Below are positions 32,934 to 44,434 of a stretch of 64,000 bases of DNA, piece after piece; within the stretch, counting starts at the first letter, position 1; each line of letters opens with the position of its first letter. A program made the position numbers and the translations under genes. The stretch is from the NCBI GenBank assembly GCA_023131835.1, contig JAGLZA010000099.1, forward strand, positions 787-64,786, read 5' to 3'. The stretch is from a candidate division WOR-3 bacterium (lineage in GTDB: Bacteria > Hydrothermota > UBA3072). The notes beneath the pieces were generated by a model. That model was given only the letters and a program-made list of their open reading frames with translations. It was not told the DNA's origin and made no database searches.

Positions 32934-33488
32934 TCATAGAATTTCACCCTCTTGTATCTTCACCCAGTACCCAAACAGTGATTTTTCGTAGTGGTTATGG
33001 TTGGGATAGCGGAACTCGATAATTTTCCAGAACTTTTTATTATGCCTTCTTTCAATAAGATGAGCGAGTTCGTGGAAAATTATATATTCAATCATATTCT
33101 CAGGTAGAAATTTCATAAGGGTGTTCGCTGTTATATTATTCCTTCCACTCAGGCTTGCCCACTTGGTTTTCATCTTCCGGAAAAAGATTTTGTTTGCCTT
33201 TACATTTAAATCCTTTGAAATCTCTTCCATATAATTTTGGATCAATTGTCCAAAATCTTTGGATTCCCTTGCTACAAGTTCCTTTCCCTCTGCCTCCTTA
33301 ATACATTCATCTATGAATGCCCTCTTTTTCTCAATCCACCTGCTGTGTTTTTCATAAATTTCTTCAGGCTTGGTCCCATAAGGTAAAATAAGTACAAGTT
33401 CACCTGTTGTAAATTCAATCCTCGGATATTTCACTTTCCTATAGAATACTCTGTAATTTGAAATTTCAGGAACCGTAGTTTTCAACAT
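32934..33488 (-). CDS. DUF45/YgjP-like HExxH metal-dependent hydrolase (type I R-M associated)
   Basis: HELAHLIERRH zinc-binding motif. Overlaps the hsdR 3' end by 23 nt. Confidence 0.7.
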   Translation of the reverse strand: MLKTTVPEISNYRVFYRKVKYPRIEFTTGELVLILPYGTKPEEIYEKHSRWIEKKRAFIDECIKEAEGKELVARESKDFGQLIQNYMEEISKDLNVKANKIFFRKMKTKWASLSGRNNITANTLMKFLPENMIEYIIFHELAHLIERRHNKKFWKIIEFRYPNHNHYEKSLFGYWVKIQEGEIL

Positions 33489-42658: not shown

Positions 42659-44434
42659 TTATTCTTTCTTGAAATACTCAAGTTCCTCCAGATATCCTTC
42701 GATCTTCTCATCTAGTTTTTCAAGTTCTTCTTCAGTCTTTTTTAACGCGCTCCACTCACCTGCAATATCAATCTCTTCAATCTCTTCTTCAGGAAATGCA
42801 TAAAGTGTTACATTTAGGTTGTAGTCGTTTTCCTCTATCTCTTCCTGGGTGACTATTCTTGAAAATCCTTCAATCTCTTTGTATTTATTGTAAACTTCTA
42901 CAATTTTTTCTATATTCTCCTCCCCCAACCTGTTCAGTTTTCTAACATCCGGATGTTGTTCGAATTCACTGCTTGCATTGATGAAGAGTACCTTACTTTT
43001 TCTATTCTCAGTTTTGTTTTTATTAAAAATTATGATTGCACCAGGAGCCCCAGTATTATAGAACAGTTTTTCAGGTAGTAAAAGCACCATTTCTATAAGG
43101 TCGTCCTTTAAAACCCCTATCCTAATTGCCCTTTCTCTTCCACCCCTGAATAGACATCCATTATCAATAACCACACCGACTTTTCCCGAATCATCTCTGG
43201 CTGAAGCTAACATATGTTGAATCCATACCCAGTCGGCAGATTGTTTTGTGGAGAACCCATAGGAGAATCTTTCCTTCCAGAATTCACCTTTTTTCAATGA
43301 ATCCTCACCATATCCATCCTGATTCCAGGGTGGATTTGCAATTACCATATCAAACTTCTTTACCCCATCCCCATCCTTGAATTTTGGCGACCTCAGAGTA
43401 TCTCCATAAACGAGATGGGCATTTCTGATATCGTGAATATAGAGGTTCATCTTTCCAAGGGAGAGGGTTTTGATATTTGCTTCTTGCCCATAAAGAAATA
43501 GTTTATCTGCCTCTTTCTTTCCGGATTTTTCCTCAATATGCTGATAAGAAGTGATTAACATTCCTCCTGAACCAGAAGCAGGGTCATATACACTTTCTTT
43601 AGGTTTGGGATCAAGTATCTCTACTATAAGTTTTATCACCTCTCTTGGCGTATAAACTTCACCTTCTTTTGCCTTCTGTGGTGCAAAGTATCTTAATATC
43701 CATTCATAAGCGTCACCGAGTATGTCGGGGGAAACGCTGTGGAGTTTTTTCATACTAAATAGTTCCACCAGCTGCCTGAGGATTTCGGCATTTTCTATAC
43801 TACTGGTAAACTGAACGAAATCTATATTCTCAAAGACTTCCTTCAATTCAGGATTATTCTCTGCAATAACCTTCATTGCCCGGGAAAAATTCTCAGGGAG
43901 TTTTGCCGGGTCTTTGCGGATATTTTCCCATAGAAACTCTTCGGGCAAATCAAAATCATGATAACTTGCATTCTTTGCTTCCTGCTTCGCTTCTTTCTCA
44001 TTCAGACCATCTTTTAAAGCTTCTCGATATGCCTCTTGATATTCCTTTTCCCATTTATCACTGATTCTTTTATAAAAAAGCAGTATCAGGATAAAGGTAT
44101 AATCCACCCTCGTCCTGATAAGGTCTGCTGCCTTTTTGAGCAATCCTTCAAGGTCTCCACGAGTCAATTCTTTATCAAGGAGTGTAGAAATAATTCCCTC
44201 CCTGCTTTTGATTTTATATATTTTCTTTCTGGCATCTTTAGGATCAGATATAACCATAAGATGCCCACTCTTCTTGAGTTCTGAGAGAACTACATTTACC
44301 TGATTCTCAGGGTCATCAAATTTCTCAGATAGAATCTTTTTAGCTTCATCAAACCTGAATGAACGCTCTTTTATTTTACTCCACAATGTCAAATATCTCT
44401 TTTCAACCCATTTTTCAATCATATACTCCTCCAT
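42659..44434 (-). CDS. hsdM: Type I restriction-modification DNA methyltransferase subunit
   Basis: N6-adenine methyltransferase motifs (VIANPPWNQ NPPW catalytic motif, DPASGSGGML SAM motif I) and an N-terminal HsdM_N domain. Confidence 0.85.
   Translation of the reverse strand: MEEYMIEKWVEKRYLTLWSKIKERSFRFDEAKKILSEKFDDPENQVNVVLSELKKSGHLMVISDPKDARKKIYKIKSREGIISTLLDKELTRGDLEGLLKKAADLIRTRVDYTFILILLFYKRISDKWEKEYQEAYREALKDGLNEKEAKQEAKNASYHDFDLPEEFLWENIRKDPAKLPENFSRAMKVIAENNPELKEVFENIDFVQFTSSIENAEILRQLVELFSMKKLHSVSPDILGDAYEWILRYFAPQKAKEGEVYTPREVIKLIVEILDPKPKESVYDPASGSGGMLITSYQHIEEKSGKKEADKLFLYGQEANIKTLSLGKMNLYIHDIRNAHLVYGDTLRSPKFKDGDGVKKFDMVIANPPWNQDGYGEDSLKKGEFWKERFSYGFSTKQSADWVWIQHMLASARDDSGKVGVVIDNGCLFRGGRERAIRIGVLKDDLIEMVLLLPEKLFYNTGAPGAIIIFNKNKTENRKSKVLFINASSEFEQHPDVRKLNRLGEENIEKIVEVYNKYKEIEGFSRIVTQEEIEENDYNLNVTLYAFPEEEIEEIDIAGEWSALKKTEEELEKLDEKIEGYLEELEYFKKE

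What the first reader, a model, noticed from the sequence alone, without database searches (positions are those of the whole stretch)
32934..44434. Type I R-M operon interleaved with four non-R-M genes (AlbA_2/HATPase_c_4, 288-aa unknown, SIR2-like, HEPN) plus a DUF45 peptidase
hsdM, hsdS and hsdR are clearly identifiable, but each pair is separated by extra co-oriented genes joined by 4-23 nt overlaps or gaps under 50 nt, which indicates one transcription unit. SIR2 and HEPN domains are hallmark effectors of abortive-infection and defence systems. Their embedding inside the R-M operon, rather than alongside it, suggests a fused multi-layer defence locus, or genes that modulate R-M activity.
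Basis: partly seen in the sequence, partly recalled or inferred. Interest (0 to 1): 0.7.

Follow-up and report, generated by a model that had tools for sequence, protein, structure and literature searches.

The report
Defence genes nested in restriction operon
A bacterial restriction-modification operon carries four extra predicted anti-phage genes slotted between its own genes; this layout is real but belongs to an already described pattern ("embedded" defence genes), so it is a well-documented example, not a new kind of system.

Summary
Eight co-oriented, tightly packed minus-strand genes (32934-44434) are hsdM, a Schlafen-GHKL-HTH protein, an AbiJ-like protein, a SIR2 protein, hsdS, a classical HEPN protein, hsdR and a DUF45 metallopeptidase. 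The source is a candidate division WOR-3 metagenome bin.

The "288-aa unknown" is AbiJ_NTD4, which matches PADLOC candidate PDC-S32. The SIR2 protein matches PDC-S65. Both candidates were defined from genes embedded in RM/BREX/DISARM operons (Payne et al. 2024). The Schlafen-GHKL protein belongs to a family already reported as RM-associated. HEPN-T and AbiJ genes in R-M operons were noted in 2013.

Relatives share an RM backbone about 90% identical but differ in cargo:
- AbiJ or the Schlafen protein can be absent.
- HEPN can be replaced.
- The SIR2 C-terminal domain is swapped (30-38% identity, against 85-87% for the N-domain).
- A 41-nt duplicated SIR2 start marks an insertion scar.

Most SIR2 homologues lie away from any RM system. 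The HEPN family, in contrast, sits mostly between hsdS and hsdR, the position PrrC occupies.

Best reading: a co-transcribed, recombination-assembled, multi-layer defence operon made of autonomous cassettes. Functional coupling of HEPN to the RM system is possible but untested. This is a new member of a known kind, of moderate interest.

The parts
44456..44485 (-). Promoter-like site (TTGATG-18-TAAAAT) just upstream of hsdM; candidate operon promoter
   Evidence: Consensus scan. This is only a consensus match. The number of promoter-like sites in the region is not clearly above the shuffled controls.
42659..44434 (-). hsdM, type I methyltransferase (591 aa; public gene call starts at 44422, giving 587 aa). 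It has an N-terminal extension of about 90 aa.
   Evidence: Pfam N6_Mtase 2e-110 and HsdM_N. PADLOC MTase_I 3e-108. DPASGSGG and NPPW motifs are visible in the translation.
41138..42658 (-). Schlafen(AlbA_2)-GHKL ATPase(HATPase_c_4)-wHTH protein ('Schlatpase', COG2865 type), 506 aa. It starts directly after the hsdM stop codon.
   Evidence: Three Pfam domains score above their cut-offs. The E22-x4-E27-x-K29 motif and GHKL residues are conserved. It is 97% identical in L085 and L088. The family is RM-associated in the literature.
41052..41117 (-). Relic ORF MTNEDKMTQLAYIIEGNYAVF*, a duplicated ribosome-binding site plus 5' end of a SIR2 gene; a recombination scar
   Evidence: The 41-nt direct repeat D3 (41084-41124 and 40148-40188) is 88% identical. 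The sequence was read. The same relic is in L085, and in L088 the SIR2 gene itself occupies this position.
40223..41065 (-). AbiJ-like protein (AbiJ_NTD4 plus a C-terminal Abi_C-like HEPN region), 280 aa from ATG 41065; matches PADLOC PDC-S32
   Evidence: Pfam AbiJ_NTD4 1.2e-29. PDC-S32 5e-89. The C-terminal region hits Abi_C only at E 0.011. Invariant residues are H175, R248 and H249.
39312..40181 (-). SIR2 gene, N-terminal SIR2 (predicted NADase) domain, aa 1-290
   Evidence: SIR2_2. N134, D136 and H168 are invariant in 76 homologues. The AF2 model has pLDDT 90. Foldseek hits are the SIR2 subunit of the short-Argonaute SPARSA system, ThsA, DSR2 and KomC. This domain is 85-87% identical in sister loci.
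38463..39311 (-). SIR2 gene, all-helical C-terminal domain, aa 291-572; hypervariable and shuffled, the presumed sensor
   Evidence: No Pfam hit. It is 30-38% identical in loci whose N-domain is 85-87% identical. N-domain and C-domain groupings disagree. The nucleotide-homology breakpoint lies at 39236 against three loci.
37252..38472 (-). hsdS, specificity subunit with two target-recognition domains
   Evidence: Methylase_S, two stretches, 1e-63. PADLOC Specificity_I 9e-78. Only the central and 3' conserved regions align with sister loci.
36473..37255 (-). Classical HEPN (PF05168 / HEPN-T) protein, 260 aa, with a helical insert of about 120 aa; lies between hsdS and hsdR
33466..36486 (-). hsdR, restriction/translocase subunit (1006 aa; public gene call gives 1000 aa from 36468)
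   Evidence: TIGR00348 6e-207. HSDR_N, SWI2_SNF2 and T1R_D3-like. The FIDEAH helicase motif is visible in the translation.
32934..33488 (-). DUF45/YgjP-like zinc metallopeptidase, 184 aa; overlaps hsdR by 23 nt
   Evidence: Pfam YgjP-like 1.2e-26. HELAH motif. A homologue follows hsdR in every related locus with enough flank.

Best explanation
This is an intact type I restriction-modification operon from a WOR-3 bacterium. It serves as a landing pad for separate anti-phage cassettes, and all genes are probably transcribed from one promoter upstream of hsdM.

Backbone. The recurring backbone is hsdM, Schlafen-GHKL-HTH, [cargo slot], hsdS, [HEPN slot], hsdR, DUF45.

Cargo in this window. The cargo slot holds two single-gene defence candidates:
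- An AbiJ-type protein, with a variable AbiJ_NTD4 sensor domain and a C-terminal HEPN-like effector domain.
- A SIR2 protein, with a conserved NADase-type domain and a hypervariable helical C-terminal sensor domain.

Assembly. Cassettes and single sensor domains are exchanged by recombination at conserved gene starts and domain borders, in the same way hsdS recognition domains are exchanged.

Inferred function.
- The RM system cuts unmodified incoming DNA.
- If a phage escapes, the embedded proteins act as independent second-line effectors that sense phage components. The predicted activities are SIR2 NAD+ depletion, AbiJ/HEPN RNA cleavage and Schlafen tRNA cleavage. Each would stop growth of the infected cell.

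Shown here: gene content, domain identity, conserved catalytic residues, mosaic structure and context statistics.
Inferred: co-transcription, the enzymatic activities and the anti-phage role.
For: Domains.
- Domain and candidate-system matches.
- SIR2 catalytic N134/D136/H168 are invariant.
- The SIR2 fold matches the defence NADases SPARSA-SIR2, ThsA, DSR2 and KomC.
- The HEPN fold is confirmed.
- The Schlafen E-x4-E-x-K motif and GHKL residues are conserved.

Modularity.
- HsdM (90-91%), HsdR (92%), DUF45 (81-86%) and Schlafen (97%) are conserved in L085, L088 and L091.
- AbiJ is 49% identical or absent. SIR2 is 58-62%. HEPN is 26% or replaced by another AlbA_2 protein.
- Nucleotide homology blocks have sharp breakpoints.
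- A relic SIR2 start lies upstream of AbiJ.
- SIR2 N-domain and C-domain groupings disagree.
- In other loci the same slot holds PDC-S54, or a KAP-NTPase pair.
- GC falls to 0.29-0.33 over the cargo, against 0.385-0.397 over hsdM.

Autonomy.
- Only about 12 of 80 genomic SIR2 loci have hsd genes within 10 kb.
- An AbiJ-SIR2 pair occurs without RM in L092.

Operon.
- Overlapping or adjacent genes, with no terminator-like site on the operon strand.

Precedent.
- Payne et al. 2024, Anantharaman et al. 2013, and two Schlafen papers.
Against: - No experimental data exist for any of the four embedded families. PDC-S32 and PDC-S65 are untested candidates, and no paper in the library mentions them.
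- The AbiJ C-terminal region matches Abi_C only below threshold (E 0.011). It has R248-H249 in place of a clear Rx4-6H motif.
- The HEPN-T protein also lacks a canonical Rx4-6H motif. It has R213 plus a distant invariant H63, so RNase activity is uncertain for both proteins.
- The HEPN family's strong preference for the hsdS/hsdR junction, and the constant presence of Schlafen-GHKL and DUF45 on the backbone, fit functional coupling to RM better than pure autonomy.
- Context detection used phmmer with this window's Hsd proteins only, so very divergent RM systems could have been missed.
Confidence: 0.7

Rival explanations
1. PrrC-like guard. The HEPN protein between hsdS and hsdR, and possibly the Schlafen-GHKL protein, is held inactive by binding the HsdMSR complex. 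It is released as a suicidal RNase when a phage anti-restriction protein disables the RM enzyme.
For: - The HEPN gene occupies the position of prrC (hsdS, X, hsdR) and overlaps hsdS by 4 nt.
- In about 13 of 20 informative metagenomic loci, close family members lie in the order hsdS, HEPN, hsdR, DUF45. One of these is a minimal operon with no other cargo (L105) and one has a tandem duplication (L119).
- PrrC's nuclease domain is also a HEPN domain, and its regulation by EcoprrI is established.
Against: - The protein has no ABC/NTPase domain, which in PrrC relays the activating signal.
- The slot is exchangeable. L091 has a backbone about 90% identical but a HEPN only 26% identical, and L088 has an AlbA_2 protein there instead.
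- About a third of close homologues have no detectable hsd neighbours.
- The canonical Rx4-6H motif is absent.
Confidence: 0.2
2. R-M accessory or regulatory genes. The backbone-linked extras control the RM enzyme itself and do not attack the phage or the cell. The HTH-bearing Schlafen-GHKL protein would act as a regulator or DNA-damage sensor. DUF45 would act as a protease that removes or degrades stalled HsdR (restriction alleviation).
For: - Schlafen-GHKL-HTH and DUF45 are as conserved as, or more conserved than, HsdM and HsdR across sister loci (97% and 81-86%).
- They recur with this RM type in distant loci.
- DUF45 overlaps hsdR by 23 nt and has an intact HExxH motif.
- The Schlafen protein carries a C-terminal wHTH.
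Against: - The Schlafen nuclease triad is conserved. Characterised prokaryotic Schlafen proteins are tRNA-cleaving effectors.
- L091 keeps the operon without the Schlafen gene, so it is dispensable for the RM.
- Nothing here bears on the substrate of DUF45.
Confidence: 0.15
3. Selfish passengers. The embedded genes landed in a recombination-tolerant 'genomic sink' and hitch-hike on selection for the RM operon. They provide little or no defence, for example as toxin-like addiction modules or decaying cargo.
For: - Presence and absence are patchy in near-identical operons.
- Gene relics and scars are present.
- The 'genomic sink' idea is discussed by Payne et al..
Against: - All ORFs are intact, with conserved catalytic residues and high-confidence folds.
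- Effector domains stay conserved while putative sensor domains are shuffled. That is the signature of selection for function and changing specificity, not of decay.
- No cognate antitoxin genes are evident.
Confidence: 0.1

Closest known systems
Defence genes embedded in type I RM/BREX/DISARM/Hma operons ('guilt-by-embedding', Payne et al. 2024, bioRxiv 10.1101/2024.01.29.577857)
   Same: - Co-oriented non-RM genes are nested between hsd genes.
- Two of them match PADLOC candidates derived by that method (PDC-S32, PDC-S65).
- The AlbA_2+HATPase_c_4 family is listed there as embedded family FAM_00002.
   Different: - This operon has four embedded genes in two slots, plus DUF45.
- The HEPN-T protein has no full-length match to any PADLOC v2 model (one search gave only a weak Csx1/Csm6 HEPN hit, E 2e-4).
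They are not taken from the parts of the paper read.
PrrC / EcoprrI (anticodon nuclease embedded between hsdS and hsdR; PMC1484252, PMC2610378)
   Same: A HEPN-superfamily protein is encoded between hsdS and hsdR of a type I operon.
   Different: - The protein has no ABC-type NTPase domain.
- It belongs to the classical HEPN-T (PF05168) family, not the PrrC/RloC family.
- Regulation by the RM enzyme is untested.
Defence-associated SIR2 NADases (DSR2, ThsA, the SIR2 subunit of the short-Argonaute SPARSA system, KomC)
   Same: - The SIR2 fold and the conserved N/D/H residues are shared.
- The single-polypeptide layout of effector plus helical C-terminal region resembles DSR2.
   Different: - There is no SLOG, APAZ or Argonaute partner.
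- The C-terminal domain (about 280 aa) has no detectable sequence family.
- It is far shorter than the C-terminal region of DSR2.
AbiJ family / AbiJ-NTD4 (Anantharaman et al. 2013, PMC3710099)
   Same: The AbiJ_NTD4 N-terminal domain is present. That paper noted AbiJ genes in operons with R-M systems.
   Different: The C-terminal HEPN match is below threshold, and the Rx4-6H motif is not evident (R248-H249 instead).
Schlafen-GHKL 'Schlatpase' proteins associated with RM systems (bioRxiv 10.64898/2026.05.29.728809; PMC13462974)
   Same: It has the SLFN_AlbA_2 + PF13749 GHKL + HTH architecture, and it sits beside hsdM in an RM operon.
   Different: It has no Argonaute, NACHT or Csx15 sensor. The activation signal of the RM-linked group is unknown.

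Membership tests
Type I restriction-modification system (hsdMSR) | HsdM N6-adenine methyltransferase with the SAM-binding and NPPW motifs | tested here: met
   N6_Mtase 2e-110 and HsdM_N. DPASGSGG and NPPW are in the translation.
Type I restriction-modification system (hsdMSR) | HsdS with two target-recognition domains | tested here: met
   Methylase_S, two stretches, 1e-63. Specificity_I 9e-78.
Type I restriction-modification system (hsdMSR) | HsdR with an N-terminal nuclease domain and an SF2 DEAD/H translocase | tested here: met
   TIGR00348 6e-207. HSDR_N, SWI2_SNF2, ResIII and T1R_D3-like. DEAH is in the sequence.
PADLOC PDC-S65 (candidate single-gene system) | Full-length match to the PDC-S65 HMM | tested here: met
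   E 9.4e-177; residues 1-567 against profile positions 12-586 of 592.
PADLOC PDC-S65 (candidate single-gene system) | Demonstrated anti-phage activity | not testable with these tools
   PDC systems are untested candidates. No paper in the library mentions PDC-S65.
PADLOC PDC-S32 / AbiJ family | Full-length PDC-S32 HMM match and an AbiJ_NTD4 domain | tested here: met
   PDC-S32 5e-89. AbiJ_NTD4 1.2e-29.
PADLOC PDC-S32 / AbiJ family | C-terminal AbiJ HEPN domain (Abi_C) with the Rx4-6H motif | tested here: inconclusive
   Abi_C scores only E 0.011 (16.3 bits, cut-off 24). Some homologues carry PF14355. R248 and H249 are invariant and adjacent, with no H at +4 to +6.
Defence SIR2 NADases (ThsA/DSR/SPARSA-type) | SIR2 fold with conserved NAD-site Asn/Asp and catalytic His | tested here: met
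   N134, D136 and H168 are invariant in 76 sequences. Foldseek E 7e-11 to 1e-7 against SPARSA SIR2, ThsA, DSR2 and KomC.
Defence SIR2 NADases (ThsA/DSR/SPARSA-type) | The family-specific partner: a SLOG domain (ThsA), APAZ plus short pAgo (SPARSA), or the long DSR C-terminal region | tested here: not met
   The C-terminal 282 aa have no Pfam hit. No Argonaute or ThsB gene lies in the operon. PDB matches cover only the SIR2 domain.
PrrC-type RM-linked anticodon nuclease | N-terminal ABC-type NTPase domain | tested here: not met
   The 260-aa protein is all-helical HEPN plus insert. It has no NTPase hit.
PrrC-type RM-linked anticodon nuclease | Gene located between hsdS and hsdR of a type I operon | tested here: met
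   Coordinates. The position recurs in relatives.
PrrC-type RM-linked anticodon nuclease | Silencing by the RM enzyme and activation by an anti-restriction factor | not testable with these tools
   This needs genetics or biochemistry.
Classical HEPN (PF05168, HEPN-T) | Four-helix HEPN fold and a Pfam match above the gathering score | tested here: met
Classical HEPN (PF05168, HEPN-T) | Adjacent minimal nucleotidyltransferase (MNT) partner, as in MNT-HEPN modules | tested here: not met
   The neighbours are hsdS and hsdR. No nucleotidyltransferase gene lies in the operon.
Schlafen-GHKL 'Schlatpase' | SLFN_AlbA_2 plus PF13749 GHKL domain in one protein, with the Schlafen acidic/lysine catalytic motif | tested here: met
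   Both Pfam domains score above their cut-offs. E22-x4-E27-x-K29 and E303/N307/H311 are conserved. The motif comparison with CbCash E17/D22/K24 was made by eye.
DUF45/YgjP-like metallopeptidase | Pfam match and the HExxH zinc site | tested here: met
   YgjP-like 1.2e-26. HELAH.

The most novel reading that the evidence does not exclude
The recurring layout hsdM, Schlafen-GHKL-HTH, [cargo], hsdS, HEPN-T, hsdR, DUF45 is a distinct 'extended' type I RM class. In it, the HEPN-T protein acts as a dedicated guard without an ATPase, analogous to PrrC and wired to the HsdS/HsdR complex. The Schlafen-GHKL protein may act the same way. The RM state would then gate RNA-targeting suicide effectors, while the central slot recruits interchangeable sensors.
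Probability: 0.2. Interest if true: 0.65.

Novelty: new member of a known kind. Interest (0 to 1): 0.35.

Why it matters
The finding does not open a new category. Nesting of defence genes inside type I RM operons has been known since PrrC and was systematised in 2024.

It is still a clean natural example of how such operons diversify:
- A conserved RM backbone supplies the recombination arms.
- Whole cassettes, and single sensor domains (SIR2 C-terminus, AbiJ N-terminus, hsdS recognition domains), are swapped between them.
- Effector domains stay constant.

It yields three concrete, testable leads:
1. An untested SIR2 candidate (PDC-S65) with a shuffled specificity domain.
2. A HEPN-T family of roughly 1,100 cluster representatives, absent from PADLOC v2, that prefers the PrrC position.
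3. The RM-linked Schlafen-GHKL group, whose trigger is unknown.

Tried and rejected
- **AbiJ and SIR2 as an obligate two-gene system.** The pair recurs in six of seven close loci, and also outside RM in L092. However, L088 has SIR2 without AbiJ, and 78 of 80 more distant SIR2 loci lack an AbiJ neighbour. Both families are large and mostly solitary. I read the pairing as linkage by descent, not as proven function.
- **SIR2 C-terminal domain as APAZ-like.** There is no sequence or fold support.
- **Literature on PDC-S65 and PDC-S32.** The search found nothing.
- **Literature linking DUF45/COG1451 to hsdR.** The search found nothing usable.
- **tRNA and Rfam scans of the window.** Both were empty, so there is no tRNA-linked integration site.
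- **Promoter scan.** It is uninformative: 56 sites against 44 ± 7 in shuffles.
- **The 324-aa gene next to the HEPN homologue in L092.** It has no family match.
- **Active-site geometry in the AF2 models.** I could not measure it, because coordinates are not exposed.
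Full report
**Observation**

Eight co-oriented minus-strand ORFs fill 32934-44434. Pfam, PADLOC and NCBIfam identify them as follows:

| Coordinates | Product | Key evidence |
|---|---|---|
| 42659-44434 | HsdM | N6_Mtase 2e-110; DPASGSGG and NPPW motifs |
| 41138-42658 | 506-aa SLFN_AlbA_2 + HATPase_c_4 + Fic-like_C (wHTH) protein | three Pfam domains above cut-off |
| 40223-41089 | AbiJ_NTD4 protein | matches PADLOC PDC-S32 full length (5e-89) |
| 38463-40181 | SIR2_2 protein | matches PADLOC PDC-S65 full length (9e-177) |
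| 37252-38472 | HsdS | two recognition domains |
| 36473-37255 | HEPN protein | PF05168, above its gathering score |
| 33466-36486 | HsdR | TIGR00348, 6e-207 |
| 32934-33488 | DUF45/YgjP-like peptidase | intact HELAH site |

- Genes abut or overlap by 0, 10, 4, 14 and 23 nt, or are 41-72 nt apart.
- No terminator-like site lies on the operon strand within the region.
- A roughly 500-bp intergenic region with a promoter-like site precedes hsdM.
- The "288-aa unknown" is an AbiJ-type protein. Its likely start is ATG 41065 (280 aa), as in public gene calls.

**Source**

The same sequence is on an ENA scaffold from a metagenome. NCBI names the SIR2 protein as coming from a candidate division WOR-3 bacterium.

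**The individual proteins**

SIR2 protein:
- The family is large, with more than 1,600 hits in bacteria and archaea.
- N134, D136 and H168 are invariant.
- The AlphaFold model (pLDDT 90) shows a SIR2 Rossmann domain (residues 1-285) followed by an all-helical domain (292-566).
- Sequence and fold searches hit only the SIR2 domain. The matches are the defence NADases: the SIR2 subunit of the short-Argonaute SPARSA system, ThsA, DSR2 and KomC.
- The C-terminal domain has no family.

HEPN protein:
- The model is confident (pLDDT 91).
- It is interrupted by a helical insert of about 120 aa.
- Invariant residues are E39, K40, K43, H63, R213 and Y214.
- The family has 1,107 cluster representatives at E ≤ 1e-10.

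506-aa protein:
- It has the Schlafen-GHKL-HTH architecture, recently named "Schlatpase".
- An E22-x4-E27-x-K29 motif and the GHKL residues are conserved.
- Characterised prokaryotic Schlafen domains cleave tRNA.
- A Schlafen+ATPase+DNA-binding cluster is reported as tightly RM-associated, with an unknown trigger.

AbiJ-like protein:
- Its C-terminal region hits Abi_C only weakly (E 0.011).
- It has an invariant R248-H249 pair in place of a clear Rx4-6H motif.

**Comparative anatomy**

Three loci share this RM backbone:

| Locus | HsdM identity | HsdR identity | DUF45 identity | Schlafen identity | Cargo order |
|---|---|---|---|---|---|
| L085 | 90% | contig ends before hsdR | contig ends before DUF45 | 97% | hsdM, Schlafen, AbiJ, SIR2, then other genes |
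| L088 | 90% | 92% | 86% | 97% | hsdM, Schlafen, SIR2, hsdS, AlbA_2 (459 aa), hsdR, DUF45 |
| L091 | 91% | 92% | 81% | absent | hsdM, AbiJ, SIR2, hsdS, HEPN (307 aa, 26% identical), hsdR, DUF45 |

- A more distant WOR-3 locus, L018, keeps the full order with diverged parts.
- Nucleotide comparison shows conserved blocks with sharp edges:
  - 44505-41022: hsdM, Schlafen, a relic, and the first 45 nt of AbiJ.
  - 40674-39236: the AbiJ C-terminus plus the SIR2 N-domain.
  - Short conserved stretches within hsdS.
  - 36459-32955: hsdR plus DUF45.
- The variable segments are the AbiJ_NTD4 domain, the SIR2 C-terminal domain, the hsdS recognition domains and the HEPN slot.
- At protein level, the SIR2 N-domain is 85-87% identical in these loci and the C-domain 30-38%.
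- N-domain and C-domain groupings are discordant across eleven proteins, with at least five C-domain types. This is domain shuffling.
- A 41-nt direct repeat (40148-40188 and 41084-41124, 88% identical) duplicates the SIR2 ribosome-binding site and first codons.
  - It leaves a 22-codon relic ORF upstream of AbiJ.
  - L085 has the same relic. In L088 the SIR2 gene itself begins at that spot.
  - This marks insertion, or loss, of the AbiJ cassette by recombination.
- GC content drops to 0.29-0.33 across the cargo, against 0.385-0.397 in hsdM.

**Autonomy versus coupling**

- Of 80 genomic loci encoding SIR2 homologues, about 12 have hsd genes within 10 kb. The SIR2 gene is therefore usually independent of RM.
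- An AbiJ-SIR2 pair also occurs without RM in L092.
- The HEPN family behaves differently.
  - In about 13 of 20 informative metagenomic loci, close members lie in the order hsdS, HEPN, hsdR, DUF45.
  - One of these is an operon with no other cargo (L105) and one has a tandem duplication (L119).
- In loci L095, L097 and L102 the same backbone (hsdM, Schlafen-GHKL, slot, hsdS, HEPN, hsdR, DUF45) carries different cargo in the slot. One carries a KAP-NTPase (PifA-like) plus an unknown 582-aa protein. Another carries PDC-S54.
- The locus is best described as a backbone with a cargo slot, plus a second slot that prefers HEPN-T.

**Mechanism**

Most likely (about 0.7):
- The operon is co-transcribed.
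- The RM system is the first barrier.
- The embedded proteins are independent second-line effectors. The predicted activities are SIR2 NAD+ depletion, AbiJ/HEPN RNA cleavage and Schlafen tRNA cleavage.
- Variable sensor domains would control these effectors.
- Recombination at conserved gene starts and domain borders assembled and diversified the operon.

What is shown and what is inferred:
- Shown: gene content, folds, conserved residues, mosaicism and context statistics.
- Inferred: the enzymatic activities, the triggers and co-transcription.

Rivals:
- A PrrC-like guard role for HEPN-T, and perhaps for Schlafen-GHKL (0.2).
- Regulatory or maintenance roles on the RM enzyme for Schlafen-HTH and DUF45 (0.15).
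- Selfish passengers (0.1).

**Relation to known work**

- Payne et al. [quoted passage not shown] They discussed PrrC and the "genomic sink" idea.
- Their supplement lists AlbA_2+HATPase_c_4 (COG2865) as embedded family FAM_00002. Cassettes containing it were rejected as candidates.
- Anantharaman et al. 2013 already recorded HEPN-T clustering with R-M operons and AbiJ in R-M operons.
- PrrC regulation by EcoprrI is established.
- The finding is therefore a new member of a known kind.
- This analysis adds three points:
  - the domain-level shuffling of PDC-S65;
  - the insertion scar;
  - the positional preference of an insert-bearing HEPN-T family that has no full-length PADLOC v2 model (one search gave only a weak Csx1/Csm6 hit).

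**Limits**

- Context detection relied on phmmer with this window's Hsd proteins.
- No experiment exists for any embedded family.
- Neither HEPN-type protein shows a canonical Rx4-6H motif.

Noticed in passing
window 44941-51034 (minus strand): Directly upstream of the operon lies a 1468-aa RHS-repeat/DUF6531 protein (46628-51034). Two small ORFs with no family hits follow it (45894-46565 and 44941-45756). The layout looks like a polymorphic toxin with immunity or orphan genes.
   Followed up: partly
window 44680-44900: The intergenic region upstream of hsdM holds two long GC-rich perfect hairpins (for example CCTGTCTGCG...CGCAGACAGG and GTAGAGACGAGGCATTGCCTCGTCTCTAC). The RNA fold z-score is -5.5. 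They may be terminators of the upstream genes or a repeat element. Rfam found nothing.
   Followed up: partly
window 41376-41423: A 12-nt tandem repeat encodes (VTEQ)3 in the linker between the GHKL and wHTH domains of the Schlafen protein. Copy number differs in homologues.
   Followed up: no
L085 11762-11935: A 57-aa ORF just after the SIR2 gene contains a 61-nt stretch 92% identical to the 3' end of the window's AbiJ gene (window 40305-40245). This is a second recombination relic in a sister locus.
   Followed up: partly
L092/L093 (also L116/L117): An overlapping AbiJ_NTD4-SIR2 pair occurs without any hsd gene on a 9.6-kb contig. A HEPN-T homologue and an unknown 324-aa gene lie next to it on the opposite strand, together with a DUF433/DUF5615 pair.
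   Followed up: partly
L119 9872-11874: Two tandem HEPN-T genes lie between hsdS and hsdR in one metagenomic operon.
   Followed up: no
L095 4112-7694; L097 6498-7724: The same backbone carries other cargo in the hsdM-proximal slot. L095 has a KAP-family NTPase (weak PifA/QatA hits) plus a 582-aa protein with no family. L097 has a full-length PDC-S54 match.
   Followed up: partly
window 26111-29997: A plus-strand cluster resembles a lar operon for nickel-pincer cofactor biosynthesis and its dependent enzyme. It comprises LarA-like (Lar_N/LarA_C), a NAD-synthase-like gene, an AIRC-type gene and a Ni_insertion (LarC-type) gene. The sister RM loci L085 and L088 have entirely different flanks, so the operon sits in different neighbourhoods.
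   Followed up: no
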